Shown: positions 993-16,497 of the stretch, one piece after another
How positions within the stretch are numbered: position 1 is the first letter of the stretch
How the letters are laid out: each line of letters opens with the position of its first letter
UHGV virus genome: UHGV-0097332
Length of the DNA stretch: 16,497 nt
Source: a virus
Direction: 5' to 3' (one strand)
Notes under the pieces: generated by a model
Database searches by the model: none
The model's input: only the letters and a program-made list of their open reading frames with translations
What the model was told of the DNA's origin: nothing
Made by a program: the position numbers and the translations under genes

Positions 993-997
993 ATATT

Positions 998-1304: not shown

Positions 1305-1346
1305 TATCATGCCGTTAATATGTTGCCATCCGTGGCAATCATGCTG

Positions 1347-1970: not shown

Positions 1971-2155
1971 GGCCTTCCCCTTTTGCCCTGTTTGACCATC
2001 AGGACGCCGTTAACTATTACGTGACGCTCGCCTTTGCTGTCTCGGTTGTACTTGAGCACTGTTCCTCTTGCGCAGGAAAGCATCCTCGCCACTTCGGTCT
2101 GATTGCCTCGTGTCTGGATAAGAAGCTCTGGTATCGTTTGAATTGTGGCGTTCAT
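1967..2155 (-). CDS. ninH: NinH-like small DNA-binding protein
   Basis: 62-aa ORF whose core GNQTEVARMLSCARGTVLKY...IVNGVLMV resembles lambda NinH (orf-68). Stop overlaps the Q start. Confidence 0.75.
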   Translation of the reverse strand: MNATIQTIPELLIQTRGNQTEVARMLSCARGTVLKYNRDSKGERHVIVNGVLMVKQGKRGRP

Positions 2156-2514: not shown

Positions 2515-2801
2515 GGCTTAATCTTCCCCTCCTTCAGCAGGATCGCCTGCGTCCTGATCACGCCTTCGAGGTGGTAAAGTCTGGCGTCTTTGTTGTCGAG
2601 ATTATGGGTGCGTCGGTCGATTTCATCGTGACACGCGCTACAAGCCCATGCGCCGATCAGGTCGTCAGGTTTCATTCCCGTTCCGCAAATTCCAGCCATC
2701 CGGTAATGTGCCAGAACTGTAGTTTCAGGGTTGCCATTGCATATGCCGTAAATACGTACCTGGCATTCTCTGCCGCGCGCTTCTTTGCGTAGGTTAGCCA
2801 T
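2511..2801 (-). CDS. YbcO-like (DUF1364) nin-region protein, Cys-rich putative nuclease
   Basis: 96-aa ORF MANLRKEARGRECQVRI...CSACHDEIDRRTH resembling DLP12 YbcO as recalled. Overlapping stop/start with its neighbours. Confidence 0.7.
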   Translation of the reverse strand: MANLRKEARGRECQVRIYGICNGNPETTVLAHYRMAGICGTGMKPDDLIGAWACSACHDEIDRRTHNLDNKDARLYHLEGVIRTQAILLKEGKIKP

Positions 2802-3523
2802 TAAGCAGCCTCCCCTGTTACTTTCAGCATTCCGTTATCTAGCAGCTTTCTGGTCAGCCACTGTTGACCACGCCCGGTGATTTTTGTGGTGAACGATATC
2901 TGTATTCCGTGATTTGTGTTGACCGCTGTTTCTTTCACTGTGAAATAGCCGCGATCCATATATTCCTGCATTGGCACATTGCGCCGGGAACCTGAAGCAA
3001 TAAGGATTTTGTGATCGCGCATCCACGCAAACAGTTTGTTTGGACCAATTCCAACAACCTTTGCAAAGTTTCCAATCAAAATTCCGCTGGCCTCGCCAAC
3101 GCGATCGGCAAACTCAACTTTAGGTGCGGCAATTGCGAGCTGGTTTTCCAGTTGCATTTTCTGCTCAGCAAGGTCAGCAGCAAGGCGCAACGCTTCTGGT
3201 AGCGTTTTTGGGATATTAACCGCAGTTTCTTCAAGCTCTCGCCAACGGTCAACAAGACGAGCGGTGAATTCCGGCGACAACTGGGCAACGACAATAATGC
3301 TGTCGCGCTTGCCTTGTTCGCCTTCGAAGACGTAAGCCTCGACACTACGGCGCAGTCCTAAGTTATTGATTTTTTCGAAAACCTGCAATGCAGGAAGTTG
3401 AATAACTCCAGATTTAGCCAGGCGCTCTATTGATATTTTTACGTTATCTGGACGACTTCCCACCAACTCAGCGATTTCAATGCTTGTCATTTTGATGGCA
3501 TTGCCATTTATTAACTCATTCAT
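2801..3523 (-). CDS. Phage regulatory/antirepressor-like protein (Rha/Roi-type N-terminus, KilAC/ANT-type C-terminus)
   Basis: 240-aa ORF. The N-terminal part carries a helix-turn-helix-like segment (TSIEIAELVGSRPDNVKISIERLAKSG); the C-terminal part resembles KilA-C/ANT domains. Assigned from recalled family resemblance only. Confidence 0.55.
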   Translation of the reverse strand: MNELINGNAIKMTSIEIAELVGSRPDNVKISIERLAKSGVIQLPALQVFEKINNLGLRRSVEAYVFEGEQGKRDSIIVVAQLSPEFTARLVDRWRELEETAVNIPKTLPEALRLAADLAEQKMQLENQLAIAAPKVEFADRVGEASGILIGNFAKVVGIGPNKLFAWMRDHKILIASGSRRNVPMQEYMDRGYFTVKETAVNTNHGIQISFTTKITGRGQQWLTRKLLDNGMLKVTGEAA

Positions 3524-3692
3524 CGTCTTCTTCCTCGTACATTGAGCTATTCGGATCGCTCATCAGTTCTGCGCAGCAATCGGAGCACACGTGAACTTCC
3601 AGCACATGCAGCTTCTGACCGCAGTTAGCGCACGTTAAAGCTCGCTCGACGCTTTCTTTCTGGTATTGAAGGGATTGGGATGGGCTAAGCAT
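3516..3692 (-). CDS. ninF: NinF-like small Cys-rich protein (58 aa)
   Basis: Hand translation from the minus-strand ATG at 3692: [58 protein letters not shown]. Resembles lambda NinF (orf-56). Below the ORF-track length cutoff. Stop overlaps the next start. Confidence 0.7.
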   Translation of the reverse strand: MLSPSQSLQYQKESVERALTCANCGQKLHVLEVHVCSDCCAELMSDPNSSMYEEEDDE

Positions 3693-4065
3693 TATTGGCG
3701 TCCTGCATCATGAGAAATACAATCATGGCGGCGCGGAGAGGCGATTCACCGCAGAAGCAGTAGTCAGGAATATTTTCCCATTCCCAACAACCTTCCTCTA
3801 AATCACCTCCTGACCATGCGCACCATTCTTTTTCCGCTGTCATCCACATGGTGCTAATTTTGTTTTCAGTGATGATCGGATATGCGTCAGCGGCCATATT
3901 ACATGGGTCAAAATATCCGCAAGGCAAAAACTCACCACCATCAATTCCAGCCAAGTAAACTTCTTTCTTTTCTGGATCCCAGTCGTAATTGTTTTTTCCT
4001 AGCACGATATGCGCGACTTTTAAGTTAATTTCAAAATCACTTAACTGTGAATAATCCATTGTCAT
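3685..4065 (-). CDS. Hypothetical Trp/Cys-rich nin-region protein (about 126 aa)
   Basis: Start chosen at the ATG that overlaps the NinE stop (AAATGACAATGG); the ORF-track start at 4101 would overlap ninE. No family recognised. Confidence 0.5.
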
Positions 4066-4238
4066 TTCCTCGCACGATGTCTTAGCCACCGGATATCCCA
4101 CAGGTGAGCCGTGTAGTTGAAGGTTTTTACGTCAGATTCTTTTGGGATTGGCTTGCGTTTATTTCTGGAGCGCTTCGTTGGAAGGTATTTGCAGTTTTCG
4201 CAGATGATGTCGGTGATACTTCGTCGCTGTCGTCTCAT
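4062..4238 (-). CDS. ninE: NinE-like small basic protein (58 aa)
   Basis: Hand translation: [58 protein letters not shown]. Resembles lambda NinE (orf-60). Start ATG overlaps the NinB stop (ATGA). Confidence 0.7.
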
Positions 4239-4645
4239 TCATACCTCCTGTCGGTAAATCTGACACCCTGACCAATAGCCCAGGCTGTCGTGTACTCAAT
4301 CAGACTTGCCATGCGCTTCACACTCATCTGCGCGCTGCTTTCGCGAATGTTGACGTATTCGCCTTCAAGCCCGGGCAAAACATCAGCTTCCTGCTTTGTT
4401 GCCACTGCATGACCGCTTATCAACAAAACCTTCCATTGTTCTGGTTTTAACCATTTATCGCACCATTGAACCTGACGTGCGATATCCGCCAGCATCGCGT
4501 GAAATTTTGCGTTCTGGTCAAGGTTGCGCTTGTAGTCAGTAATGCGGATGGTGACTGGCTTGTCTTTATCGAGAGGAGTTTCGAGGATGGCGTTGATTGC
4601 GGCTTGCTGTTGTTGCTTACTTCGGAGGAAGATTGTTTGCTTCAT
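4235..4645 (-). CDS. ninB: NinB (orf-146 family) recombination protein
   Basis: 136-aa ORF with the NinB-like motif [22 protein letters not shown]; first gene of the nin cluster. Confidence 0.82.
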
Positions 4646-4652
4646 CGTTACC

Positions 4653-4859
4653 TCAACTCACAAAACGCCACGCCACTTTTGCTACGACAACAGGCATAAC
4701 ACCGATAATCACCCACAGGAAAATGCTACCGAAAAGCACACCAACCAGGTCTTTACCTTCGCCTACCAGCCGGACAAAACTGCTGGCAACCACAATGAAC
4801 GTCGCCACCATCCACATAGCACCGAGAATCCTCAATGCAGAAAAAATCAACTCAACCAC
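4653..4859 (-). CDS. Hypothetical small membrane protein (68 aa, two predicted transmembrane helices), GTG start
   Basis: Strong ribosome-binding site GGGGGAGAG six nt upstream of a GTG start. Highly hydrophobic product. Lies between the terminator at 4878-4918 and ninB. Confidence 0.4.
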   Translation of the reverse strand: MVELIFSALRILGAMWMVATFIVVASSFVRLVGEGKDLVGVLFGSIFLWVIIGVMPVVVAKVAWRFVS

Positions 4860-4877
4860 GATTTACTCTCCCCCAAA

Positions 4878-4918
4878 TAAAAAGGCCTGCGATTACCAGC
4901 AGGCCTTTATCTTTTTTT
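4878..4918. terminator. Bidirectional intrinsic terminator-like hairpin (possible tR2 analogue)
   Basis: Stem GGCCTGC (4884-4890) / GCAGGCC (4899-4905) with an 8-nt loop, flanked by an A-run upstream and TTTATCTTTTTTT downstream. It therefore looks like a terminator on both strands. Confidence 0.6.
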
Positions 4919-5518
4919 AACACGCTTTCGAGTCCTTTTAGATTTTTCCTTAAGATATTCCGCAAGTTTATCCTCATCATTATTAAATTGAGATAAAAGC
5001 TCATGCTCGCAATTAAGTGCTTTACTCGCATAAGTTCCATATAGTTTCTTTCTTGCTAGTGCTGCTATGAATGCTGCATCTTCTTTGCTATCGAAATACC
5101 CTAACGATATTGTCTTATTTTTATAACCAACATAAGACTTCCACCTGCCAGTTGTCTTATCCCAAGACACTCCAATCGCACCGGATGTGTTTAACCTATT
5201 CCCTACAATGTTTCTTGCATTCTGCTCCTCTGTTGCCAGTCTTAGATTTGAAATCCTATTGTCAAGTCTGTTCCCATTTACATGATCAATAAACTTAGGA
5301 GGCCATTTTTTGTATACATAGAACCAAGCAAGTCTATGCGCATAATACAAAACATTATTTATGCTAATGCATATATAACCACCACTAACACCTCCAGCAA
5401 TACTACCTTTTACTCTTACTACTGAATTTGTTTTTAGCCATTTAAATATTCCTGTTTCTGAGTCATATGATAATGTTGACAGAAGCTCATCGTGATCAAT
5501 TAGTTTTTTTATTCGCAT
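4907..5518 (-). CDS. HNH homing endonuclease with C-terminal AP2-type DNA-binding domain
   Basis: 203-aa ORF. HNH motif region YYAHRLAWFYVYKKWPPKFIDHVNGNRLDNRISNLRLATEEQNARN, then an AP2-like segment GVSWDKTTGRWKSYVGYKNKTISLGYFDSKEDAAFIAA. The gene is markedly AT-rich compared with its flanks. Confidence 0.85.
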   Translation of the reverse strand: MRIKKLIDHDELLSTLSYDSETGIFKWLKTNSVVRVKGSIAGGVSGGYICISINNVLYYAHRLAWFYVYKKWPPKFIDHVNGNRLDNRISNLRLATEEQNARNIVGNRLNTSGAIGVSWDKTTGRWKSYVGYKNKTISLGYFDSKEDAAFIAALARKKLYGTYASKALNCEHELLSQFNNDEDKLAEYLKEKSKRTRKRVKKR

Positions 5519-5596
5519 AAAGAATATACTTAATAATATATACAGTAAGAACCATTAGTAACGATAACCCTGCTATCAGCTCAGTGATGTAGATGG

Positions 5597-6973
5597 TCAT
5601 ACGTCAGCCCCTTGTGCATATCGTCTGCCACGCGCAGCAGGTGCATTTGATGCTGTGCAAATCTGTCTGGCTTCATCCTGGTCACATGCAACAAAGTGTC
5701 CGTTACAGAACCGCTGGTAAACCGTACCAAGTGAGCCAAAACGGTTTTTCGTCACGATGATTTCAGCAAATGGCGCGGCGCTACTGTTCTCGTCATATAC
5801 CGCTTCCCGATAGAGCATGATGATTGAGTCTGCGTCCTGCTCAATGCTTCCTGAATCACGCAAATCTGCGTTTGTCGGGCGTTTGTTTGGTCGCTTCTCA
5901 ACATCGCGTGAAAGCTGACTTAGGGAGATAACAGGCGTTTTCAGGTCTTTCGCCATCGCCTTAAGGCTTCCTGAGATGTGAGCAATTGCGAGGTCGTTGC
6001 GGTCTGCTTTCGGCTTCTCAATCAGGCCAAGATAATCCACCATGATGAGTGAGAGGTTTGGATTTTCCTGTTTGTGTCGTTCTGCGATTGAGCGTATTTC
6101 TTCGACCGATAACCGCGAGGCATCGACTACCCATACATCCAAATCTGCAAGCTGACTCATGCCGTTAGCAACACGCGCCCAGCCTTCGTCATCCATCGAT
6201 GCAGGATTTCGCAGTACGCTAACCGACATCCTCCCGGCGTTGGCAATGCTTCGCTCTGCAATCTGCAATGCGCTCATTTCCATTGAGAAAATCAATACCC
6301 CGCGCCGGACGTCAGAACCAGGAATAACGCGGCTTGCAACGCCTTCGGCAATCTTCAGCGCCAGTTCGGTTTTCCCCATACCAGGACGAGCAGCGATTAT
6401 CACAAGGTCTTCTGCGTTCATCCCTCCGGTGATGGCATCAAGTTCTTCGATTCCGGTCTTCAGGGTATCTGACTCTTCTCCGTTCCTCAGACGCCTGTCA
6501 AGCGTGTCAGTGTAGTCAGTGATGATTTCCCCTAACCGTACAGGTTTAACCTCGTCACGGGGCTTTCTGATGGCTGAGAGACGTTTTACAAGTTCATCCA
6601 TCGCCTGACTCGATGCGTCGATGGTTCCGCTTTGGATTGGTTCACGCATTTCATCCATGATTTTCAGCACCAGACGGCGGTGATAGTTATCCGCGACCAT
6701 TCCGGCATATCCCTTCAGGTTTGCGGCACTCGGGCAGTTTTTGCTGGTCATCAGGATTGACGTGAAATGCTCCTCTCCGCACTCCTCGGCAACCATCAGC
6801 GCGTCGATTAGGTTTCTGTTTCGCGCCTGCTTGCGGATAACCTCGAAGGCTTTTCTGTAGAGCGGAATTGAAAACGCTTCCGGCTCCAGCGTTGCCAGAA
6901 CGTCACTGGCGGTTGGAGTTAATCCACCAATCAGCAGGCCACCGATAACGCTCGCTTCGATATCCTGTCTCAT
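5597..6973 (-). CDS. Replicative DNA helicase, DnaB family (P22 gene-12 type)
   Basis: 458-aa ORF with Walker A GMGKTE, Walker B IMVDYLGL, and DnaB-like motifs. Start overlaps the stop of the upstream initiator gene. Confidence 0.93.
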
Positions 6974-7800
6974 GCAATCCCCCTGTCTGCAAACTTCCCT
7001 TCCCGAACTCCCGTTAACGAGTCTTCTCTCAGCAGGTAATCAAAATCAGCCGTCCAGCCCGTGTCGTTGTCTCCGAAGTAAAACGGCTTGGCCTGATGCA
7101 CAAACGCCCTGACATACGCTCTGAAACCGTCCACGTTTGGCGTTTTCAGTTGCGGGATGATTTTCTTCAGGCGGCGTTTTCGTTTCTCGTTGACCGCAAC
7201 AGCGTGTGGAAGTCTGTCACCGACTTCGGTGTTGTAGGCGTTCAGGAAGGATTCGTAGTCGATTCGTTCTGCCTTGCGACGTTCAGGTTTAACCTGCCCA
7301 TCGCCGCCCCCGTTAGGGGGTAAGGGGGTATTTGTATTTATTGTCTTTTGTATATTGTCTTTTGTGTTTGACTGATTCGGTAAATTGCTTTTTACCGATT
7401 TGGTGAAGGTTTGTTTTACCGAATTGGTAAATGTTTTACCGAATCCGTTAACTTTCGTTTTCCACTCGGAAATGTTTGTATTCATACCAACTTGACGCCC
7501 CACCTGAATGAGAACTCCCATTCTGATAAGCTCGTTTTTGGCGGTAGAGCATTTGGTTGGTGCCATGCCAGTGAGTTCAGCGAACTGTTCGTTTCCGATC
7601 CAATCTATTTTTTTGTTGTAACCGTATGTCTTGCGCCACACAGCCATAACAATCAGTAACTGATGTAGAGTAAGTCCAGAAAGCATGGCGGCTTCTAACA
7701 GTGTGTTTGCAGTCCGAGTGTAGCCATCTTCGAGTTCTGCCACGCGATGCTCCACGACCTCCAGTTGAGGCCTGTAATCAGCTAACTTAACGACGCCCAT
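6970..7800 (-). CDS. Replication initiator, lambda O-like (iteron-binding N-terminus, contains ori)
   Basis: 276-aa ORF with an AGGAG ribosome-binding site. An internal low-complexity linker ([17 protein letters not shown]...) is encoded by the iteron/AT-rich DNA, as in lambda O. Followed by the helicase gene. Confidence 0.85.
7327..7452. repeat. Origin of replication: AT-rich region plus at least three direct iterons inside the initiator gene
   Basis: Iterons TTTTACCGATTTGG (7391-7404), TTTTACCGAATTGG (7414-7427), TTTTACCGAATCCG (7434-7447), with a related inverted copy near 7377-7388. Adjacent AT-rich block with two copies of ATTGTCTTTTGT (7339-7367). Confidence 0.7.
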
Positions 7801-7948
7801 GTTTCACTCCTGCTTTGGCTAGTCTGTAAACACCAACAAGGCGCTCTGCGAACGCCCTGTTATTTGCTGCGGCTACCACTAATCCCTCAGGTGAATCAGG
7901 GTGTCGAATCTCTTCTTTTTCCTGGTATTTCTTACGACGTTTTGTCAT
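7787..7948 (-). CDS. Possible small basic ORF (53 aa) between cII and the initiator
   Basis: Hand translation [53 protein letters not shown]; overlaps the initiator start by 14 nt. No clear ribosome-binding site, so it may not be real. Confidence 0.25.
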   Translation of the reverse strand: MTKRRKKYQEKEEIRHPDSPEGLVVAAANNRAFAERLVGVYRLAKAGVKHGRR

Positions 7949-7980
7949 AATGACTCCTGTGGATTGATCCAGTAATTCCC

Positions 7981-8277
7981 TCAGAATTGCATATCAATTT
8001 GCTTAGAGTCCCCGGCGGCCACCGGGGATTTTTTCTTTGTGATTCCATCAAGCGCATACTTAAAAGCCCTACTAATCGGACTGATGTCTGATGCCATTCC
8101 GAAAGCACACAAGACCGAAGCAATAAATCTCCAGTCCGTTCTGCTTATCTTCGATTCATGACAGCCAATCATCTTTGCCAGACCGCGCTGGGTAAGCGTT
8201 GACAGGTTGATGAGTAAATCTGTTTCTGCGCGATCAATTTCTCGCTGTGTTGGCTTGCTGTAACTTGCTTGTGTCAT
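7981..8277 (-). CDS. cII: CII-like transcriptional activator
   Basis: 98-aa ORF in the position after cro and nutR. Helix-turn-helix segment (GCHESKISRTDW) and C-terminal tail KKKSPVAAGDSKQIDMQF resemble lambda CII (SQISRWKRDW ... KKRPAATERSEQIQMEF). It is a homologue, not identical. Confidence 0.78.
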   Translation of the reverse strand: MTQASYSKPTQREIDRAETDLLINLSTLTQRGLAKMIGCHESKISRTDWRFIASVLCAFGMASDISPISRAFKYALDGITKKKSPVAAGDSKQIDMQF

Positions 8278-8361
8278 TTGTTAATTTTCCAATAGTGAAT
8301 AGTTAGTTGAAAGGTATGCGTGGAAACGCATATGGCCTTAGTTGGTCAGATATCTTGGGGC

Positions 8362-8407
8362 TCGCTTTGTCAGCGACGTAGGACGAATGTCCATTGTGAA
8401 AAGAGCG
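8362..8407 (-). promoter_or_regulatory. nutR: boxA-like CGCTCTTTT and boxB hairpin (P22-type loop)
   Basis: Read on the minus strand: CGCTCTTTT (8407-8399), then the hairpin TCGCTGACAAAGCGA (8376-8362). The same GCTGACAAAGC hairpin occurs again downstream of pL. Confidence 0.65.
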
Positions 8408-8414
8408 GTGTTAC

Positions 8415-8615
8415 TTATGCAGTTGTTTTTTTGTTACTTGGGAAGGGCTTTATTTCTTCCGCATAAACGCTTCCATCAGCGTTTATAGTTAAAAAAATCT
8501 TTCGGCCTGCATGAATGGCCTTGTTAATCGCGCTTTGATATACGCCGAGATCTTTAGCCGTCTTGGTTTGCCCAAAGCGTATTGCATAATCTTTCAGGGT
8601 TATGCGTTGTTCCAT
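8415..8615 (-). CDS. cro: Cro repressor (lambda type)
   Basis: 66-aa [69 protein letters not shown], essentially the lambda Cro sequence as recalled. Confidence 0.97.
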
Positions 8616-8641
8616 ACAACCTCCTTAGTACATGCAACCAT

Positions 8642-8705
8642 TATCACCGCTAGAGGTAAAATAGTCAACACGCACGGTGTTAGATATTTATCCCTTGCGG
8701 TGATA
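8642..8705. promoter_or_regulatory. Right operator OR1-OR2-OR3 with divergent pR (minus) and pRM (plus)
   Basis: OR1 TATCACCGCTAGAGGTA (8642-8658), OR2 CAACACGCACGGTGTTA (8666-8682), OR3 TATCCCTTGCGGTGATA (8689-8705). pR -35 TTGACT and -10 GATAAT are readable on the minus strand. The cI ATG at 8716 sits immediately after pRM, consistent with a leaderless cI message. Confidence 0.9.
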
Positions 8706-8712
8706 GATTTAA

Positions 8713-9429
<717 letters not shown>

Positions 9430-9436
9430 CACGTAA

Positions 9437-9874
9437 ATGATTAAAGAACGTATTTCTTATATCATTCCGATTGCGATGGATGAAGGCAACCCAGTAACTC
9501 CGGTTCTTATCTATGAAATGGATAAAGACTCCCATGAAGTGGATCTATCATTTGGCGCTTTTTTTATCGGCCTTAAGGCTACAAAAAAATATTCCATAGG
9601 CATTGAGGTTTTCAATGCTCAAGAAATACCGATACCAATTGACACAAAACTGTACTCCAACCATAAGTTTTTTACGGTAGCAGAAGCCAACGATGGAGAA
9701 ACCATCGTATCAACTTCTATGAGAATTAACTTCCCAAGGGTGAAAATTATCAAGCCTGGGATATTCGAAGTTAGAGCATCACTGGTTAATCCTGATAAAG
9801 GCGAAGTAATTGATGTAAAAAGTTCGTTTTTTGACGTGAAGATAACAGGATCAGTTCGCGATGAGTTTAGATAA
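9437..9874 (+). CDS. Hypothetical 145-aa protein in the rexA position (first gene of the candidate lysogen-expressed cassette)
   Basis: ORF starts 8 nt after the cI stop and is AT-rich. No transmembrane segment or recognisable motif. It is not RexA (lambda RexA is about 279 aa and unrelated in sequence, as recalled). Confidence 0.7.
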   Translation: MIKERISYIIPIAMDEGNPVTPVLIYEMDKDSHEVDLSFGAFFIGLKATKKYSIGIEVFNAQEIPIPIDTKLYSNHKFFTVAEANDGETIVSTSMRINFPRVKIIKPGIFEVRASLVNPDKGEVIDVKSSFFDVKITGSVRDEFR

Positions 9875-10232
9875 CAAGGTTGCTCAGCTTCGTCCAAATC
9901 AAAACATATCTCGCCCAATTGGACACTATTCCACTGATGATGCATACTCACGGCATGGTGGAGGAAACGGCGGAGGTAACATGCTTGAGGCTAGAGTTGC
10001 AAAGCTAGAGTCTGATGTTGAATACATCAAGCGCGATCTCGCTGAAGTAAAGTCAGATATAAAATCTGTAGATTCTCGTCTGTCAGGTATTGAGACAAGC
10101 ATTAGCTCAGCAAAAATCACCATCAAGGCATCTGCGGTCGTTGTCAGTTTCGTGTTCGCATTTTGCGCCTACATTTTTGGAAGTTATGTTTCCAAAATCC
10201 TTGATGCCTTAAACGGACTCGTTCTTAAGTAA
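9861..10232 (+). CDS. Hypothetical small coiled-coil protein with C-terminal transmembrane helix, in the rexB position (alternative start ATG 9981 gives 83 aa)
   Basis: 123-aa ORF overlapping the upstream ORF by 14 nt. Gly-rich segment, then coiled-coil heptads (LEARVAKLESDVEYIKRDLAEVKSDIKSVDSRL), then hydrophobic helix AVVVSFVFAFCAYIFGSYV. GGAGG motifs lie just upstream of the internal ATG at 9981. Followed directly by a terminator. Confidence 0.7.
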   Translation: MSLDNKVAQLRPNQNISRPIGHYSTDDAYSRHGGGNGGGNMLEARVAKLESDVEYIKRDLAEVKSDIKSVDSRLSGIETSISSAKITIKASAVVVSFVFAFCAYIFGSYVSKILDALNGLVLK

Positions 10233-10239
10233 CACACAA

Positions 10240-10265
10240 CCCGGCCTCAGCGCCGGGTTTTCTTT
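10240..10265 (+). terminator. Intrinsic terminator ending the cI-cassette operon (timm equivalent)
   Basis: Stem CCCGGC (10240-10245) / GCCGGG (10252-10257) with loop CTCAGC, then TTTTCTTT. Matches the sequence I recall downstream of lambda rexB. Confidence 0.8.
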
Positions 10266-10422
10266 GCCTCACGATCCCCTTCACCCAATAACACATAACC
10301 AATTGTATTTATTTGAAAATTAATAGATACAACTCACTAAACATCGCAATTCAGATCTCTCGATCACCTCCCAAGCCACACACCCCTGCAAAAAAATAAA
10401 TCTATATAAAAAACATACAGAT

Positions 10423-10493
10423 AACCATATGCGGTGATAAATTATCTCTGGCGGTGTTGACATAAATACCACTGGCGGTGATACTAAACACAT
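10423..10493 (+). promoter_or_regulatory. pL promoter with OL3-OL2-OL1 operators
   Basis: OL3-like AACCATATGCGGTGATA (10423-10439), OL2 TATCTCTGGCGGTGTTG (10443-10459), OL1 TACCACTGGCGGTGATA (10467-10483). -35 TTGACA (10457-10462) and -10 GATACT (10481-10486). Confidence 0.9.
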
Positions 10494-10553
10494 CAGCAGG
10501 ACGCACTACTCACCAGGGCGGTGAATATACAACGATTCGAATATGAATCTACG

Positions 10554-10568
10554 GCGCTGACAAAGCGC
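10554..10568 (+). promoter_or_regulatory. nutL boxB hairpin (P22-type)
   Basis: GCGCTGACAAAGCGC: 5-bp stem with loop TGACA-type. Lies about 65 nt downstream of the pL start and upstream of N. No convincing boxA was found by eye. Confidence 0.65.
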
Positions 10569-10733
10569 AATAACCAAAGTGAACTTTGGGGTGTGGTGAA
10601 GGGTTCATGGACGGGAATATGTCGCACGTAAAGCGGCGAGGCCTGCGGGACTATTGCCGAATTGAAGTAGGCCGAAACAGGTCGAAATGGGTCTCCCACC
10701 TACCACACCACCAAAGTTCATCAGGAGGTCTAT

Positions 10734-11117
10734 ATGACACGCAGAACTCAGTTCAAAGGCAATTCACGTTCTCGTCGTCGTGAGCGTTTAAAGGCAAAGG
10801 CATTAGCTAACGGCGTACTGGCCCGCGAAGAAGCAATAAGTTCAGAAGTATTACACCGCCCTACTCTAAGCAGAGCGCAGATTCAGGCTAAAGGTACTCA
10901 CGAAACGCCTGATCGCATAGAAGACGCTAAGCCAATTAAGTTCATGGCACAGGACGTGATCTGGCAACAGAAAGAATACAGACGCAATCTGGAGCGAGCG
11001 GCCATTGTGTACGCGAATGAGTTTGGACATAAGCAACCAGAAACTGGTGTATGTCTTCCAAATGTAGCTCTTTACGCGGCAGGCTACCGGAAATCAAAAC
11101 AACTGACAGCGAGGTAA
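10734..11117 (+). CDS. N: N-like transcription antiterminator (arginine-rich motif; not lambda N)
   Basis: 127-aa ORF with an AGGAGG ribosome-binding site. N-terminal arginine-rich motif GNSRSRRRERLKAKA. First gene after pL/nutL. The boxB loop matches the P22 type as recalled. Confidence 0.78.
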   Translation: MTRRTQFKGNSRSRRRERLKAKALANGVLAREEAISSEVLHRPTLSRAQIQAKGTHETPDRIEDAKPIKFMAQDVIWQQKEYRRNLERAAIVYANEFGHKQPETGVCLPNVALYAAGYRKSKQLTAR

Positions 11118-11119
11118 TT

Positions 11120-11482
11120 ATGGGTCAGGAAGAAAAATATGAGCTTAAAAAGCTCATTGGAGAAGACGCCATAGAAGAAATTGCAGCATTAACAACAGCT
11201 ATAAAGAATATTAGGTATGCGCTAAATACGCTTATCTCCTCATGCGACAAAAATAGCAGGGAATTTTTGATACTTGGCGCAGCTCTAGGAATAGTTGATG
11301 CGGCAACGCTTCACCTAATTACTCATGACGATATTCTTATTGAGCCGTATGAAACATTACTGCTTGTCAGGCAAAAAATGGCTGATGCCGCAGCAAATGG
11401 AGACCTTCAACTTTACATCGACTTAAGGAAAGTATTAAGGCGAATGGTCAGAACTGAAGGAGATATCCCCCTGACAAAGTAA
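11120..11482 (+). CDS. Hypothetical early-left protein (120 aa)
   Basis: ATG 2 nt after the N stop (TAATTATGG). Acidic, helical-looking product; no family recognised. The ORF-track extension 11051-11119 overlaps N and is discounted. Confidence 0.55.
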   Translation: MGQEEKYELKKLIGEDAIEEIAALTTAIKNIRYALNTLISSCDKNSREFLILGAALGIVDAATLHLITHDDILIEPYETLLLVRQKMADAAANGDLQLYIDLRKVLRRMVRTEGDIPLTK

Positions 11483-11512
11483 GGGGGTGAAGAGGCTATT
11501 TCAGGAATAAAA

Positions 11513-12007
11513 TTAATAATTTGTCAGCGGCGGAACATATACAGGCTTAGGGGCTGGCGCTCTATACATCCGGTATTCATTCTTACAGCGAGGACATGAA
11601 TGCACAAAGAATCCATTAGATTTTATAGTAACCGTGCTTGGTTGAAGTATCGATATTTTATGTTCGCCGAAGCAATGTGCACAAAGGTTATGCTGCTGAA
11701 TAGAAGGATCGGAATGACTCTTAGGTCGATACACGACAGAACCACCTTCAGTTGTATGAAGTTCATAATTCTCAGCTTGCACAACAAACATCTTGATTTT
11801 TCTATTTTCATCTCGAAGCTTCATTGCGATCTCCTTCTCGGCCTGATAAAGGCCAGAGAGCTCCGCATTAAGCATCTGTAAGTCAGTTATTCTTTGGTGT
11901 AGATCACCAATAGCTTTAGCGATAACCGCATCGTCTCTGGTTTCTTTTATTGTCTTCAGCAGATCATAAGCCTGTTTCGCGGCAGTTATACCAGATAACA
12001 CATCCAT
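11513..12007 (-). CDS. Hypothetical coiled-coil protein with C-terminal zinc-ribbon (CxxC...CxxC), antisense to the pL operon
   Basis: 164-aa ORF on the opposite strand to all flanking early-left genes. AGAGAG ribosome-binding site upstream of the ATG. C-terminal motif CAHCFGEHK...SCPRCKNEY. AT-rich. Confidence 0.6.
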   Translation of the reverse strand: MDVLSGITAAKQAYDLLKTIKETRDDAVIAKAIGDLHQRITDLQMLNAELSGLYQAEKEIAMKLRDENRKIKMFVVQAENYELHTTEGGSVVYRPKSHSDPSIQQHNLCAHCFGEHKISILQPSTVTIKSNGFFVHSCPRCKNEYRMYRAPAPKPVYVPPLTNY

Positions 12008-12303
12008 ATAAATTACTCTCTTACTGTAGGGGTGAATAGAGTTTATCCGATTTCTCGCTGTAGGGGTACTCGAGAACCACCGAGCCTGATGTGGTTAAAA
12101 GACAGGCATACGAATAAACACTGCACTGTGTATTCATTCCAACGAGTGAATACACGGAGCAATGTCGCTCGTAACTAAACAGGAGCCGACTTGTTCTGAT
12201 TATTGGAAATCTTCTTTGCACTCCAATGTGAGGGCCTTTTTATATGCATACCAATAACGCTTCACTCGAGGCGTTTTCGTTATGTATAAATAAGGAGCAC
12301 ACC

Positions 12304-12444
12304 ATGCAATATGCCATTGCAGGGTGGCCTGTTGCTGGCTGCCCTTCCGAATCTTTACTTGAACGAATCACCCGCAAATTACGTGACGGATGGAAACGAC
12401 TCATCGACGTACTTAATCAGCCAGGAGTTCCCAAAAATGGATAA
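12304..12444 (+). CDS. cIII: CIII (FtsH/HflB inhibitor), 46 aa, ending at TAA relative to the 54-aa lambda protein
   Basis: AAGGAG ribosome-binding site 7 nt upstream. MQYAIAGWPVAGCPSESLLERITRKLRDGWKRLIDVLNQPGVPKNG matches lambda CIII residues 1-46 as recalled. The stop is TAA where lambda has a Ser codon; the out-of-frame downstream codons would still read NTYGYPD. Confidence 0.85.
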   Translation: MQYAIAGWPVAGCPSESLLERITRKLRDGWKRLIDVLNQPGVPKNG

Positions 12445-12550
12445 AACACTTATGGCTATCCAGACTAAATTCACTATCGCCACTTTTATTGGCGATGAAA
12501 AGATGTTTCGTGAAGCCGTAGAAGCCTACAGAAAATGGAGGTCAAAATGA
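12437..12550 (+). CDS. kil: Kil-like small protein (37 aa; lambda Kil is an FtsZ inhibitor)
   Basis: ATG overlaps the cIII 3' end. MDKTLMAIQTKFTIATFIGDEKMFREAVEAYRKW... resembles the N-terminus of lambda Kil as recalled; the C-terminus differs and is shorter. Confidence 0.6.
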   Translation: MDKTLMAIQTKFTIATFIGDEKMFREAVEAYRKWRSK

Positions 12551-12735
12551 TTCCGGTAGAACTGGCGAAAACCCCAGAGTTAAGTCGATTAAAAAGAGAA
12601 TATCACATTGCTGAGGCTCGTTACTGGCGTAAGGCGGGAGATAAATCAAAGAAACAACTTTGTTTATGGCAGGCACAAAGAGAGCGCATGAATGAGCGCG
12701 AGTTTCTTTCCTGCCCATCCGAATTACCATTCTGA
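12547..12735 (+). CDS. Hypothetical 62-aa protein
   Basis: ATG overlaps the kil stop (ATGA). No family recognised; basic, helical-looking. Confidence 0.4.
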   Translation: MIPVELAKTPELSRLKREYHIAEARYWRKAGDKSKKQLCLWQAQRERMNEREFLSCPSELPF

Positions 12736-12743
12736 GGCAAATT

Positions 12744-13424
12744 ATGGGAACTGCGACATTAATACTCGGTGAATCTGGCACCGGAAAGTCAACCAGCATG
12801 AGAAATATCAATCCAGAGGAAGCAATACTTATAAAACCAATAGGCAAGCCGCTACCATTTAAATCAAAAGACTGGCTTGCATGGGATGCCAGAGCAAAAA
12901 AAGGAACCGTAGTTACCACTGACAAATGGCACGTAATAGTTGCTGTAATTAAGCGTGCTCACGAATACGGAAAAAGAATCGTTATTGTTGATGACTTCCA
13001 GTATGTGATGAGCAATGAGTTTATGCGCCGCTCAGAAGAAAAATCGTTTGATAAATTTACTGAGATAGGCCGCCACGCATGGGAGGTGATTAAGGCTGCA
13101 CAGGATGCACCTGATGACCTGAGAGTCTATTTTCTTGCACATACCGAAGAAACCCCTATGGGGCGCGTGAAAATGAAAACTATCGGCAAAATGCTGGACG
13201 AGAAAATCACTGTCGAAGGCATGTTTACTATAGTTCTTCGCACTCTTACCCACGATGACCAGTTCTTTTTCACCACGAAAAACAACGGTGCAGACACTGT
13301 TAAATCCCCAATGGGAATGTTTGATTCCAATGAGATTGATAACGATCTCTCTTTCGTCGATGCCACTGTTTGTGATTACTACGGCATCAATAATGTTCAT
13401 CAAATTAAGGAAAACGCCGCATGA
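12744..13424 (+). CDS. P-loop ATPase, RecA-like core (putative Sak4/AAA_24-type recombination protein)
   Basis: 226-aa ORF. Walker A GESGTGKST at residues 9-17 and Walker B IVIVDDFQ. Size and position (where lambda has its Red genes) suggest a Sak4-like protein; the family assignment is from memory. Confidence 0.65.
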   Translation: MGTATLILGESGTGKSTSMRNINPEEAILIKPIGKPLPFKSKDWLAWDARAKKGTVVTTDKWHVIVAVIKRAHEYGKRIVIVDDFQYVMSNEFMRRSEEKSFDKFTEIGRHAWEVIKAAQDAPDDLRVYFLAHTEETPMGRVKMKTIGKMLDEKITVEGMFTIVLRTLTHDDQFFFTTKNNGADTVKSPMGMFDSNEIDNDLSFVDATVCDYYGINNVHQIKENAA

Positions 13425-14008
13425 GCAACGTGATTTTTACTTATAACGAAGAAGCAGCACTGACCGCAGGGCAAGGTGGTTTTATTAACGAAACTGGTGC
13501 TCATATCATTACCATTACTGAAGCAGAACTAAAGCAATCAGAAAAAGGAGCCAAATTTATTGAGTTTTCTGGCGAATCTGACGACGGACGTAAAATCCAA
13601 TATCTTAGCGTCTGTGTTCAGAAAAATGACGGAACGGAAAACAAATTTGGCGCAAATGTCGTTCACGCCATGATGGGGTGTGCCGGGATTGGACAATTAA
13701 CGCAGCATATGGTTTCCGCCAGTAAATTTGTTGCACCTGAATTTCATGGAAAGAAAATCGGGTTAGTGCTCCAGAAAGTATTAACCACAAACAAAAAGAC
13801 TGGCGCAGACAGCTACCAGATGGAAATACGCATCCCGTTTATTGCACAAACAGGTCAAACCCTTAAAGAAAAGGCAGAAGGCAAGCAACCAGAAACTATC
13901 GCCAACATGGTTGCCAATCTCAAAGATAAAGACAATCGCTCTAAAAACGTAAGCCAGAATCATGCAGATGATTATGGTTACAGCCAGAACGATTACCCTG
14001 CTTTCTGA
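13421..14008 (+). CDS. Hypothetical protein partnered with the ATPase (possible single-strand-DNA-binding protein, DUF669-like)
   Basis: 195-aa ORF whose start overlaps the ATPase stop. Function inferred only from the commonly seen gene pairing, not from a motif I can point to. Confidence 0.45.
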   Translation: MSNVIFTYNEEAALTAGQGGFINETGAHIITITEAELKQSEKGAKFIEFSGESDDGRKIQYLSVCVQKNDGTENKFGANVVHAMMGCAGIGQLTQHMVSASKFVAPEFHGKKIGLVLQKVLTTNKKTGADSYQMEIRIPFIAQTGQTLKEKAEGKQPETIANMVANLKDKDNRSKNVSQNHADDYGYSQNDYPAF

Positions 14009-14031
14009 TTACTGAAAATAAGGCTCCCATT

Positions 14032-14325
14032 ATGCCAGCGCCTCTGTATGGTGCGGATGACCCGCGCCGCTGTTCCGGCAATTCCGTATTGGAGGTGCTG
14101 GATAAATTCAGAAAAAACTACGACCTGATAATGTCGCTACCGCAGGAAACGAAAGAGGAAAAGGAATTTCGCCATTGTATATGGCTTGCAGAGAAAGAAG
14201 AACGCGAGCGAATTTACCAGACATCAATCCGACCATTCCGCAAAGCCACATATACCCACTTCCCTGAAATTGACCCACGCCTGCGTAATTACCGCTCACG
14301 CTATGGCGCTATCAGTAATGACTGA
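14032..14325 (+). CDS. Hypothetical 97-aa protein
   Basis: ORF with a plausible ribosome-binding site, in the same orientation as the operon; no family recognised. Confidence 0.5.
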
Positions 14326-14335
14326 GGAATTTACC

Positions 14336-14503
14336 ATGAGAGGACTTGCATACAATCCCGGCATTCTTCCGGCAGAAATGATTATTCGCCAACGCGTAAA
14401 GCCAATGCCATCGAGAGAGGAATTGCTTAAGAGAAATAGTTTCGGTTCTGTTAATGACAACAAATATCTGAATGCGATGTGGCGCAAAGGAGGCAACCAG
14501 TGA
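14336..14503 (+). CDS. Hypothetical 55-aa protein
   Basis: GAGGAA ribosome-binding site 7 nt upstream of the ATG at 14336. Stop overlaps the next start. Confidence 0.4.
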
Positions 14504-14754
14504 GTAATTCAGCACGACTACAGCTTGGTTTTTCACCGCTATCAAAAACTATCATGCTGGCAAAAATGCGCGATGTTGAAGGTGGACGTATGCGCGTTGG
14601 CAATGATCCAGGTCGTGATGTTACCAATGAGGCTGCTCAATTGGTGTGGCAACTGGTCATGGCTGAAGGTGGTGAGATAGTGTGGGAGCTGGATGATGGT
14701 TCTCGCATGGTGTTGAAGGCAGAAAAGCAGGAGGCAACCAGTGAGCAAGATTGA
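14500..14754 (+). CDS. Hypothetical 84-aa protein (GTG start)
   Basis: GTG at 14500 is preceded by GGAGG and overlaps the upstream stop (GTGA). An ATG at 14554 is an alternative start. Confidence 0.4.
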
Positions 14755-15430
14755 CTATCAGGCACTGCGTGAAAAGGCAGAGAAAGCAACGTGTGGTGTG
14801 TGGTCGCTCGAATATGGAGAGGAGAGATTTGATGCTGGTGATGCGCTAATTCATCGTGAAGTTGTTGGATATCTTCCCATTTGCAGAATTGAAGGAGCGC
14901 ATCCTGAAAGCGGTTTCGATGAAGATTTCCAAATGGAACAGCAGGCCAATGCTGAATTCATCGCTGCAGCCAATCCGGCTACTGTGCTGGCACTGCTGGA
15001 TGAACGGGAAAGAAACCAGCAATACATCAAACGCCGCGACCAGGAGAACGAGGATATTGCGCTTACGGTAGGGAAGCTGCGTGTTGGGCTTGAGGCCGCA
15101 GAGAAGCGCAACGCTGAATTACAAAGCGAGAATGCATACATCCGCAACCGGTACAAAGAACTGGACCTATTAATCGGGAAAAACATTCTGGTCATGCAGG
15201 CTGCCATTATCGAATGGCAGGCAACTGGCGACGCTAAGAGCGGACTGGCATGGATTTATAACACACTGTTTGGCCCAGGCGAATTGCCGGACGAATCTGA
15301 GAAAGATGCTCAGGCCTACTTTAATCGCAAATATGCACCGATTGACGAAAAGCTTATGGCGCTTCACAAGTGGTTTTGGGAACAAAATGAAGCTGAGCGC
15401 GCCGCTGGCATTCGCATCAAAGGAGAGTGA
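14741..15430 (+). CDS. Hypothetical 229-aa coiled-coil protein (possibly Ead/Ea22-like)
   Basis: GTG start preceded by the same AGGAGGCAACCAGTGAG motif seen at 14486. Central coiled-coil region (ERNQQYIKRRDQENEDIALTVGKLRVGLEAAEKRNAELQSENAYIRNRYKEL). The Ea22-like name is a weak recollection. Confidence 0.55.
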   Translation: MSKIDYQALREKAEKATCGVWSLEYGEERFDAGDALIHREVVGYLPICRIEGAHPESGFDEDFQMEQQANAEFIAAANPATVLALLDERERNQQYIKRRDQENEDIALTVGKLRVGLEAAEKRNAELQSENAYIRNRYKELDLLIGKNILVMQAAIIEWQATGDAKSGLAWIYNTLFGPGELPDESEKDAQAYFNRKYAPIDEKLMALHKWFWEQNEAERAAGIRIKGE

Positions 15431-15431
15431 T

Positions 15432-15947
15432 ATGGCGTTAACACACCGCGAACTCTGTCAGATTGCGTACAAGTTCCTTAAGCGCAACGGGTTCAAGGTT
15501 TGTTTTCATGACCGCTTTATAGCTGTAACCAGTACCGGAGAACAGCCAGATGCTATGGGATTCAGAAATTCAGCATCATGCCTGATAGAGGCGAAATGTT
15601 CTCGTGCTGACTTGTTGGCAGACAGAAAAAAGCGTTTTCGTAAAAATCCGTCTCTTGGAATGGGCGACTGGCGATTCTTTATTAGTGAGCCGGGAATTAT
15701 TTCAATTGAGGATTTACCACCTGGCTGGGGATTACTTCACGTTGTTAACGGAAGAGTACGGAAAGTACATGGGTGGCCCAAGGGTAATTGCTGTTGGGGT
15801 AATCCTGACGATAAGCCATTTACTGGAAATAAGCAGGTTGAATGCGATTACATGTTATCGGCATTAAGGCGCATGGAGTTGAGAGGGCACCTTAATGAAA
15901 TATATGACGGTGTAATTGTTAATAAGAAAGAAGGAAACGCGGCATGA
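15432..15947 (+). CDS. Hypothetical 171-aa protein
   Basis: ATG at 15432, one nt after the upstream stop, with a GGAGAG ribosome-binding site. The ORF-track extension back to 15270 overlaps the upstream gene and is discounted. No family recognised. Confidence 0.55.
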   Translation: MALTHRELCQIAYKFLKRNGFKVCFHDRFIAVTSTGEQPDAMGFRNSASCLIEAKCSRADLLADRKKRFRKNPSLGMGDWRFFISEPGIISIEDLPPGWGLLHVVNGRVRKVHGWPKGNCCWGNPDDKPFTGNKQVECDYMLSALRRMELRGHLNEIYDGVIVNKKEGNAA

Positions 15948-16497
15948 CCACTATTACCAAAGAACGCCTGCTGACAATCCAGCAGTGGCGCGAAACATAC
16001 GGACCGGGTAGCAACGTTGTACTGCCAGCAGAAGAAGCGGAAGAACTGGCACGAATTGCACTGGCATCACTGGAAGCAGAACCAGTTGCTTATATTTTCA
16101 AACATCCGGCCGGAAAATTATTCTGGACTTTGACGGATGAAAGCAATAAAGATCAATCGGACGTTATTCCTGTTTATGCTGCCGCGCCTGCGCCAGTAGT
16201 GCCGGATAATGCATCAGGGTCTCTTGCTTATGCTTACAAAGAGCTTACGCCTGAGATTATGCGCAACCATTTAGCTGTATTCGAGCGATATGGAATAGCC
16301 CCAAACGATAGCACTACCACAATTCAGGCACTGCGAATCGCGCTGGATGGTATAGAGCGGAGCGACGCCATGCTTCAGGGTAAATCCGAACAACCACAAA
16401 ACGCACAACAAAATATTCCGGAAAATATTCCCGGTGGCAACTCTCCGGTAACTCCGGATGGTTGGATAAGCTGTAGTGCGCGAATGCCTGAAAAGGG
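15944..16497 (+). CDS. Hypothetical protein, 3'-truncated by the window end
   Basis: ATG overlaps the upstream stop (ATGA). The frame stays open for 184 codons to the window end (MTTITKERLLTIQQWRETYGPGSN...DGWISCSARMPEK). Absent from the ORF track, presumably because no stop lies in the window. Confidence 0.5.
   Translation, partial: MTTITKERLLTIQQWRETYGPGSNVVLPAEEAEELARIALASLEAEPVAYIFKHPAGKLFWTLTDESNKDQSDVIPVYAAAPAPVVPDNASGSLAYAYKELTPEIMRNHLAVFERYGIAPNDSTTTIQALRIALDGIERSDAMLQGKSEQPQNAQQNIPENIPGGNSPVTPDGWISCSARMPEK

What the first reader, a model, noticed from the sequence alone, without database searches (positions are those of the whole stretch)
12437..12444. A single base in the cIII/kil overlap appears to truncate CIII and change Kil residue 3
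CIII ends at TAA after residue 46, yet the following codons in the CIII frame would still read NTYGYPD, the C-terminus I recall for lambda CIII (54 aa). One substitution relative to lambda (TCA to TAA) would create the stop and, in the overlapping kil frame, change Gln3 to Lys (GATCAA to GATAAA). The functional core of CIII is retained, so this is probably tolerated, but it is a neat case of a dual-frame constraint.
Basis: partly seen in the sequence, partly recalled or inferred. Interest (0 to 1): 0.4.

Follow-up and report, generated by a model that had tools for sequence, protein, structure and literature searches.

The report
Common short cIII allele of lambdoid phages
The one-base difference from phage lambda is real, but it is a long-known, widespread natural version of the cIII/kil gene pair (the HK620 type), so this is an ordinary polymorphism, not a fresh truncating mutation.

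Summary
Window cIII (12304-12444, +) ends at TAA after 46 codons, where lambda has TCA (Ser47) and runs to 54 aa. The same base (12443, A versus C) makes Kil residue 3 Lys instead of Gln. The CIII frame after the stop still reads NTYGYPD*.

It is not peculiar to this sequence. The HK620 RefSeq record already says its CIII is "shorter than similar proteins due internal stop codon". The exact TAA 45-mer is in 76 of 228 phage records and at least 211 of about 1431 E. coli complete-genome records. The exact 46-aa protein is on at least 1000 contigs and is named CIII by NCBI.

The 46-aa protein covers all 42 positions of the Pfam CIII model and the essential residues 14-37. Within TAA-class genes, pN/pS is about 0.13 and none is disrupted. 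Kil residues 1-5 are experimentally dispensable, and the near-identical HK629 Kil is active.

A diverged Salmonella lineage (ST64T/ST160) has the same ATGGATAA junction. The short form is therefore probably ancestral, and lambda's 8-residue tail is probably a stop-loss extension read out of the kil frame.

Verdict: already known, low interest.

The parts
12304..12444 (+). cIII coding sequence, 46 codons plus TAA. It encodes the FtsH-inhibitory lysogeny factor CIII, short (HK620-type) allele.
   Evidence: ORF and translation. Pfam PF02061 scores 104.4 bits against a cutoff of 25.7, with residues 2-43 covering 42 of 42 model positions. The protein is identical to that of HK620 and HK629.
12442..12444 (+). 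cIII stop codon TAA, where lambda has TCA (Ser47). The variable base is 12443.
   Evidence: Alignment A1 column 205. TAA is shared by HK620, JEP4, Stx1a_PV728, Stx2_EH0505, Bas106 and Salmonella ST160.
12437..12550 (+). kil coding sequence, 37 codons plus TGA. It encodes the host cell-division inhibitor Kil, short RSK-ended type, with Lys3.
   Evidence: Translation. Pfam PF06301 scores 76.8 bits against a cutoff of 27.6, 31 of 31 positions. One residue (V28I) differs from HK629 Kil, which was shown active in PMC11762379.
12437..12444 (+). 8-nt cIII/kil overlap ATGGATAA. In lambda the overlap is 32 nt.
   Evidence: Read directly from the sequence. The lambda features are at 33187-33330 and 33299-33463.
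12423..12427 (+). AGGAG, a Shine-Dalgarno-like sequence 9 nt upstream of the kil ATG, inside cIII codons 40-42.
   Evidence: Read from the sequence. Its function is inferred.
12445..12468 (+). Untranslated 'ghost' of the lambda CIII tail (NTYGYPD plus TAA in the cIII frame). It is the same DNA as kil codons 3-11.
   Evidence: Identical to lambda over these 24 nt. It is conserved because it is kil coding sequence.
12519..12550 (+). Diverged 3' end of kil, up to the mosaic junction at the ATG of the next gene (ATGGAGG... here, ATGGATATT = gam in lambda).
   Evidence: Alignments A1 and A3. Lambda gam begins MDINTETE inside the kil 3' end. Kil differences are listed.
12535..12735 (+). hkaM-like small ORF (62 aa from the ATG at 12547, 66 aa from 12535), which follows kil in HK620-type phages.
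   Evidence: HK620 hkaM lies at the homologous place. No Pfam hit.
12744..13424 (+). Sak4-like P-loop ATPase (single-strand annealing protein), the first gene of the recombination module that replaces lambda gam-bet-exo.
   Evidence: Pfam AAA_24 and AAA_22. HK620 hkaL is annotated 'Sak4-like ssDNA annealing protein' at the homologous place.
12256..12283 (+). Terminator-like hairpin plus T-run upstream of cIII (tL2B in the HK620 annotation).
   Evidence: for the hairpin. HK620 regulatory features.

Best explanation
This is the ordinary HK620-type allele of the cIII-kil gene pair in the leftward early (pL) operon of a mosaic lambdoid phage or prophage.

Shown here:
- cIII ends at TAA after 46 codons. 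The stop lies 3 nt after the kil ATG, so the overlap is the 8 nt ATGGATAA.
- The same base makes Kil codon 3 AAA (Lys).

Inferred from established knowledge:
- The 46-aa CIII works like lambda CIII. Its amphipathic helix (residues 14-37, identical to lambda except I36V) competitively inhibits the FtsH (HflB) protease, stabilises CII and favours lysogeny.
- The 37-aa Kil blocks FtsZ-ring assembly in a ZipA-dependent way.

The residues missing relative to lambda (SNTYGYPD) are not part of the conserved CIII domain. They are simply kil codons 3-11 read in another frame, up to the first out-of-frame stop.

The A/C site is a standing polymorphism. It is tightly linked to the module that lies 75-90 nt downstream: short Kil, hkaM and Sak4 with TAA; long Kil, gam, bet and exo with TCA. 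Recombinants of both kinds occur.

A diverged Salmonella lineage carries the same TAA junction. The short form is therefore probably the older state, and lambda's 54-aa CIII probably arose by stop-codon loss. I put this sub-claim at about 0.6.
For: Sequence identity of the allele:
- establish the single-base difference and its reading in both frames.

Prior knowledge:
- The HK620 RefSeq note reads 'protein shorter than similar proteins due internal stop codon'.
- PGAP names the TAA-allele gene 'protease FtsH-inhibitory lysogeny factor CIII' in E. coli genomes.
- The exact 46-aa proteins (V36 and I36 forms) and the exact 37-aa Kil are each on at least 1000 contigs.

Frequency:
- Phage records: 76 exact TAA against 134 exact TCA, out of 228.
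- E. coli complete genomes: 211 against 946 records, out of about 1431.
- IMG/VR sample: 31 of 120 loci carry TAA.

Function retained:
- Pfam PF02061 is matched over 42 of 42 positions at residues 2-43.
- Residues 14-37 are essential and sufficient, and S17, R24, L26, R27 and R32 are required (PMC1838920, citing Kornitzer 1991). All are present here.
- In 28 TAA-class IMG/VR genes (12 distinct sequences), codons 1-46 show 10 synonymous and 4 non-synonymous segregating changes over 33.3 and 104.7 sites. That gives pN/pS of about 0.13, and none of the genes is disrupted.
- Window versus lambda cIII: 6 synonymous differences, 1 conservative replacement and the stop.

Kil:
- Deleting the 5 N-terminal residues leaves Kil active.
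- HK629 Kil' (32 aa, with the RSK end) blocks division and needs ZipA (PMC11762379).
- HK629 Kil differs from the window's Kil only at V28I.

Linkage:
- Counts are TAA+short 27, TAA+long 3, TCA+long 81 and TCA+short 3; Fisher p = 1e-19.
- The TAA allele sits on 22 distinct 335-nt haplotypes, including the exact lambda-type cIII synonymous-site haplotype.

Polarity:
- ST160 and ST64T-group phages (25 records) have ATGGATAAATCA. Their CIII ends ...PCNG* and their Kil is MDKS..., 37 aa.
- Over the first 96 nt of kil they are 72-76% identical to the window and to lambda, whereas window and lambda are 94% identical to each other.

Variable tails in other CIII proteins:
- 42, 43, 46, 48, 50, 51, 52 and 54 aa.
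Against: - No experiment on a 46-aa CIII was found in the searchable literature. Its activity is inferred from the 14-37 result and from population genetics.
- The pN/pS sample is small, and its sequences are related and not independent.
- The polarity inference rests on a single outgroup lineage, which itself carries the short-Kil module. It also assumes roughly clock-like rooting. Recombination could have moved the site, so a TCA ancestor with one TCA-to-TAA change before the Salmonella/E. coli split of the short-Kil class is not excluded.
- Database counts are biased by heavily sequenced clones (O157 and Stx phages).
Confidence: 0.9

Rival explanations
1. A recent, private loss-of-function (nonsense) mutation or a sequencing error in this particular genome. 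On this view cIII here is a decaying gene.
For: Relative to the lambda reference alone it looks like a premature stop with an intact downstream reading frame. Some annotators skip the short gene altogether, for example HK629 RefSeq.
Against: - The identical allele is in hundreds of independent records and on at least 1000 contigs.
- It sits on 22 distinct haplotypes.
- It is shared with a diverged Salmonella lineage.
- TAA-class genes are all intact over codons 1-46, with pN/pS of about 0.13.
- The Pfam domain is fully covered.
Confidence: 0.02
2. The polymorphism is functionally meaningful, not neutral. Either the 8-residue tail tunes CIII (stability as an FtsH substrate, oligomerisation or membrane association), or placing the cIII stop right at the kil start changes translational coupling and Kil dose. 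Each state would then be co-adapted with its downstream module.
For: - There is very strong association of TAA with the short-Kil/Sak4 module and of TCA with long-Kil/Red (Fisher p = 1e-19).
- A predicted hairpin pairs the kil Shine-Dalgarno and AUG region with kil codons 4-8 (z = -2.8). kil translation could therefore depend on ribosomes reading through from cIII.
- CIII is itself degraded by FtsH (PMC1838920).
Against: - The site is only 75-90 nt from the module junction, so the linkage is expected from proximity alone.
- Both recombinant classes exist in nature (3 and 3 of 114 typed loci).
- The predicted RNA structure and its energy are the same for both alleles, and the variable base is unpaired.
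- The tail is outside the Pfam domain and is highly variable among CIII proteins.
- Kil residues 1-5 are dispensable (PMC11762379).
Confidence: 0.1
3. The TAA is read through or recoded, so that a full-length 54-aa-like CIII is still made.
For: The downstream frame is open for 7 more codons and encodes the lambda tail.
Against: - That openness is explained by kil coding conservation.
- From general knowledge, UAA followed by A is an efficient terminator in E. coli.
- No recoding signal was seen, and the base is in an unpaired loop.
- In TAA lineages the ghost frame accumulates changes that are silent in kil: Bas106 reads NTYGYSD and ST160 reads ITYGYSV. That is as expected if it is untranslated.
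Confidence: 0.01

Closest known systems
CIII of coliphages HK620 (NP_112048.1) and HK629
   Same: Identical 46-aa protein, the same TAA stop, the same 8-nt ATGGATAA overlap with kil, and the same downstream hkaM and Sak4 genes.
   Different: Nothing at the protein level. The DNA is about 98% identical over 321 nt, and Kil differs at V28I. The window as a whole is a different mosaic.
Phage lambda CIII (54 aa) and Kil (47 aa)
   Same: The same gene pair in the same operon position. CIII residues 1-46 are identical except I36V. Kil residues 1-34 are identical except Q3K, D29E and K32R. The essential 14-37 helix and the Kil helix-turn-helix core are present.
   Different: Lambda has TCA (Ser47) and 8 more CIII residues, a 32-nt overlap, Gln3 in Kil, and a longer Kil C-terminus that overlaps gam instead of an hkaM-like gene.
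HK629 Kil (37 aa), tested by Naha, Cameron and Margolin 2025 (PMC11762379)
   Same: The same length, the same Lys3 and the same RSK C-terminus, with one conservative difference (V28I). A version lacking residues 1-5 inhibits division in a ZipA-dependent way.
   Different: The tested construct was His-tagged and began at Met6, so Lys3 itself was never assayed.
c3-kil of Salmonella P22-like phages ST64T, ST160, ES18, epsilon34 and L
   Same: The same ATGGATAA junction. CIII ends ...NG*, and Kil is 37 aa starting MDK and ending R-x-K, followed by an hkaM-like 'Orf66'.
   Different: The sequences are diverged: Kil is 68% identical, and CIII has a different N-terminus and Cys45. The host is Salmonella.

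Membership tests
Lambda CIII (Pfam PF02061; FtsH-inhibitory lysogeny factor) | Significant full-length match to the family profile | tested here: met
   Score 104.4 bits against a cutoff of 25.7. Residues 2-43 match model positions 1-42 of 42.
Lambda CIII (Pfam PF02061; FtsH-inhibitory lysogeny factor) | An intact essential region (lambda residues 14-37), including S17, R24, L26, R27 and R32, whose alanine substitutions give a cIII-minus phenotype | tested here: met
   Window residues 14-37 are PSESLLERITRKLRDGWKRLIDVL, identical to lambda except I36V. The requirement comes from PMC1838920.
Lambda CIII (Pfam PF02061; FtsH-inhibitory lysogeny factor) | Position in the pL operon, downstream of the tL2 terminators and overlapping the start of kil | tested here: met
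   Synteny with the annotated HK620 and lambda regions. A terminator-like hairpin lies at 12256-12275.
Lambda CIII (Pfam PF02061; FtsH-inhibitory lysogeny factor) | Inhibits FtsH and stabilises CII, raising lysogenisation frequency | not testable with these tools
   Only indirect support: purifying selection (pN/pS about 0.13), and the allele's presence in many established prophages.
Lambda Kil (Pfam PF06301; FtsZ-ring inhibitor) | Significant full-length match to the family profile | tested here: met
   Score 76.8 bits against a cutoff of 27.6. Residues 2-32 match 31 of 31 positions.
Lambda Kil (Pfam PF06301; FtsZ-ring inhibitor) | A helix-turn-helix core with the G19-D20 turn, and a C-terminal RSK/RSSK motif | tested here: met
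   G19, D20 and the terminal RSK are present. The features are those defined in PMC11762379. No structure prediction was run here.
Lambda Kil (Pfam PF06301; FtsZ-ring inhibitor) | ZipA-dependent inhibition of cell division | not testable with these tools
   Shown for HK629 Kil', which matches window Kil residues 6-37 except V28I (PMC11762379).

The most novel reading that the evidence does not exclude
The A/C site is a two-gene switch kept by selection. One base would simultaneously set the length of CIII (and so perhaps its lifetime as an FtsH substrate) and the distance between the cIII stop and the kil start (and so Kil dosage through translational coupling). Each state would be matched to a different recombination module. 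In addition, lambda's textbook 54-aa CIII would be a derived stop-loss form whose tail was 'born' from the kil reading frame.
Probability: 0.1. Interest if true: 0.35.

Novelty: already known. Interest (0 to 1): 0.1.

Why it matters
It matters little. In practice it is an annotation point: the 46-aa cIII is a genuine, common gene version and should not be flagged as a pseudogene or skipped, as happened in the HK629 record. Lambda's 54-aa protein should not be treated as the norm for the family. As a small evolutionary illustration, the C-terminal tails of both CIII and Kil are by-products of their overlap with whichever gene follows them in the mosaic operon. Lambda's CIII tail is probably a stop-loss extension into the kil frame.

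Tried and rejected
- The genome-contig scan with a Kil alignment returned only lambda-type loci in assemblies of unrelated organisms, many on ~48.5-kb contigs at about 1x coverage. These are evidently lambda control DNA, so the scan was useless for polarity.
- The search for homologous proteins with the 46-aa CIII returned only fringe clusters. The main CIII cluster is represented in that collection by an unrelated 122-aa Ea10/DUF2528 protein. I used the listing of cluster members instead.
- NCBIfam gave no meaningful hit for either small protein, although PGAP does name them.
- Kornitzer et al. 1991 (PMC51843), the primary source for the 14-37 result, is not held. I cite it through PMC1838920.
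- The PLoS Pathogens HK620 paper has no relevant mention of kil.
- RNA folding of both alleles showed no difference, so an RNA-structure explanation for the polymorphism was dropped.
- Sequencing error, pseudogene and stop-codon readthrough were considered and rejected (see rival explanations).
- I did not run structure prediction. It would not discriminate between the alleles.

Full report
**What is in the sequence**

On the + strand an ATG at 12304 opens a 46-codon frame that ends at TAA (12442-12444). It encodes MQYAIAGWPVAGCPSESLLERITRKLRDGWKRLIDVLNQPGVPKNG.

An ATG at 12437 opens a second frame, 37 codons long and ending at 12550. It encodes MDKTLMAIQTKFTIATFIGDEKMFREAVEAYRKWRSK. An AGGAG (12423-12427) lies 9 nt upstream of this ATG.

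The two genes overlap by the 8 nt ATGGATAA.

Pfam identifies the two products as Lambda_CIII and Lambda_Kil:
- PF02061: 104 bits, residues 2-43 covering all 42 model positions.
- PF06301: 77 bits, 31 of 31 positions.

**Comparison with lambda**

In lambda J02459 the homologous genes give a 54-aa CIII ending ...KNGSNTYGYPD and a 47-aa Kil starting MDQTL. The DNA alignment shows GGATCAAAC in lambda against GGATAAAAC here. The difference is a single base at window 12443: the second position of cIII codon 47 (TCA/TAA) and the first position of kil codon 3 (CAA/AAA).

Other differences from lambda:
- In cIII codons 1-46: six synonymous changes and I36V.
- In kil codons 1-34: Q3K, D29E, K32R and three synonymous changes.

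**It is not peculiar to this window**

All four non-lambda relatives in that first alignment (HK620, JEP4, Stx1a_PV728 and Stx2_EH0505) also have TAA. HK629, Bas106 and Salmonella ST160, read or aligned later, have it too.

The HK620 RefSeq annotation of cIII already reads [quoted passage not shown].

Searching with 45-mers that differ only at this base gave:
- 228 phage records with the locus: 76 exact for TAA and 134 exact for TCA.
- About 1431 records of complete E. coli genomes: at least 211 with an exact TAA copy and 946 with an exact TCA copy. PGAP names the TAA gene "protease FtsH-inhibitory lysogeny factor CIII".

The exact 46-aa protein (both the V36 and I36 forms) and the exact 37-aa Kil are each recorded on at least 1000 contigs.

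**Is the short CIII functional?**

From the literature:
- Lambda CIII residues 14-37 form an amphipathic helix that is "essential and sufficient" for activity.
- S17A, R24A, L26A, R27A and R32A give a cIII-minus phenotype.
- CIII acts as a competitive inhibitor of FtsH and is itself an FtsH substrate.

These points come from PMC1838920, citing Kornitzer 1991. All these residues are present here, and the stop lies three residues beyond the end of the Pfam domain.

From population data:
- Among 28 TAA-class genes from IMG/VR (12 distinct sequences), codons 1-46 carry 10 synonymous and 4 non-synonymous segregating changes, over 33.3 synonymous and 104.7 non-synonymous sites. This gives pN/pS of about 0.13.
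- The only common replacement is I36V, and no gene is disrupted.
- The allele sits in hundreds of established prophages.

I infer that the 46-aa CIII is an active FtsH inhibitor. No direct assay of it was found.

**The Kil side**

Naha, Cameron and Margolin (PMC11762379) showed four things:
- Lambda Kil lacking its 5 N-terminal residues still blocks division.
- So does lambda Kil lacking its 11 C-terminal residues.
- The 37-aa Kil of HK629 ends in an RSK motif, which is found in nearly all homologues.
- An HK629 version starting at Met6 disrupts Z rings in a ZipA-dependent way.

HK629 Kil differs from the window's Kil only at V28I. Residue 3 therefore lies in a dispensable segment.

The larger difference from lambda is at the Kil C-terminus (…RKWRSK against …KKWILILKLRSSKSIH). 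The sequences diverge from about 12519 and part company at the ATG of the next gene. Here ATGGAGG… begins an hkaM-like ORF (12535 or 12547 to 12735), followed by a Sak4-like ATPase (12744-13424). In lambda ATGGATATT… begins gam.

The window thus carries the HK620-type recombination module in place of lambda Red. The tail of Kil, like the tail of CIII, is set by the overlap with whichever gene follows.

**Linkage and age**

In the IMG/VR sample the typed combinations are:

| cIII codon 47 | Short Kil | Long Kil |
|---|---|---|
| TAA | 27 | 3 |
| TCA | 3 | 81 |

Fisher p is about 1e-19. Because the site is only 75-90 nt from the junction, this linkage needs no selective explanation, and both recombinant classes exist.

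The TAA allele occurs on 22 distinct 335-nt haplotypes. These include the exact lambda-type set of cIII synonymous sites and a different (HK022/Bas106-like) CIII N-terminus. It is therefore old and has recombined widely.

**Direction of change**

A diverged lineage of Salmonella P22-like phages (ST64T, ST160, ES18, epsilon34, L; 25 records) has the same junction ATGGATAA. Its CIII ends …PCNG*. Its Kil is MDKSLMAIQSKF…REWRLK, 37 aa.

Over the first 96 nt of kil this lineage is 72-76% identical to the window and to lambda, whereas those two are 94% identical to each other. With this lineage as outgroup, parsimony makes TAA/Lys3 ancestral. Lambda's TCA would then be a stop loss that extended CIII by eight residues, read from kil codons 3-11 up to the next out-of-frame TAA.

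This rests on one outgroup lineage and on clock-like rooting, so I give it about 0.6.

It is consistent with the CIII tail being evolutionarily free. Natural CIII proteins end 0-11 residues after the conserved QPG-x-P, at 42, 43, 46, 48, 50, 51, 52 or 54 aa. In P22 and SF3 the tail is dictated by overlap with an unrelated kil gene. In TAA lineages the ghost frame drifts through changes that are silent in kil: NTYGYSD in Bas106 and ITYGYSV in ST160.

**Rivals**

- A private nonsense mutation, a sequencing error or a decaying gene is excluded by the population data.
- Readthrough has nothing in its favour.
- A functional tuning role (CIII stability, or Kil dose through translational coupling) cannot be excluded.
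  - A predicted hairpin does pair the kil ribosome-binding region with kil codons 4-8 (z = -2.8).
  - However, both alleles fold identically, the variable base is unpaired, and both recombinants occur naturally. I give this about 0.1.

**Verdict**

The base difference and its two-frame reading are real. The interpretation as a truncation event in this sequence is not. This is the known HK620-type allele of a well-characterised gene pair, common in E. coli and Salmonella lambdoid phages and evidently functional. Novelty: already known. Interest: low.

Noticed in passing
window 12519-12550 and 12535-13424: Kil here is 37 aa with an RSK end, against 47 aa in lambda. The difference begins at a mosaic junction located at the ATG of the following gene: an hkaM-like ORF and a Sak4-like ATPase here, gam-bet-exo in lambda. 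The tails of both CIII and Kil are thus set by overlap with the next gene.
   Followed up: yes
window 12311-12550; L126 (HK629) 373-612; L001 (lambda) 388-657: The kil reading frame stays open upstream across almost all of cIII: 79 aa here and 89 aa in lambda. The HK629 RefSeq record annotates this 79-aa ORF as 'Kil' and does not annotate the short cIII at all, which is an annotation casualty of the early stop.
   Followed up: partly
window 12419-12459: A predicted RNA hairpin pairs the kil Shine-Dalgarno and AUG region with kil codons 4-8 (MFE -20.7 kcal/mol for the 99-nt stretch, z = -2.8). This suggests that kil translation may depend on ribosomes coming through cIII. The structure is the same in both alleles.
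   Followed up: partly
window 12475-12497: An 8-bp hairpin (TATCGCCA...TGGCGATG) lies inside kil, at the place HK620 annotates as terminator 'tL2C'. It has no T-run and is not picked up by the terminator scan.
   Followed up: no
window 12270-12277: The T-run after the tL2B-like hairpin upstream of cIII is one base shorter (TTTT) than in lambda, HK620 and the Stx phages (TTTTT or TTTTC). Among those compared, only phage JEP4 shares this.
   Followed up: no
loci L132-L149 (genome contigs): Lambda-type kil loci turned up in assemblies of unrelated organisms (Shewanella, Pseudomonas, Kitasatospora, Bradyrhizobium, Enterococcus and others). Several are on contigs of about 48.4-48.5 kb at about 1x coverage. 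This looks like phage lambda control DNA contaminating those assemblies.
   Followed up: no
protein cluster 1 (P0048, P0059): In the 90% protein collection the CIII cluster (1739 members) is represented by an unrelated 122-aa Ea10/DUF2528 protein, the gene next to cIII in lambda. This is a clustering artefact, and it hid the main CIII cluster from the homology search.
   Followed up: partly
window 1-16497: No phage record covers more than 47% of the window at high identity (best HK97, HK620 and HK629). No complete E. coli genome matches the 4-kb stretch 10500-14500 in full (best 85% coverage at 98.7%). The window is therefore a new combination of known lambdoid modules.
   Followed up: partly
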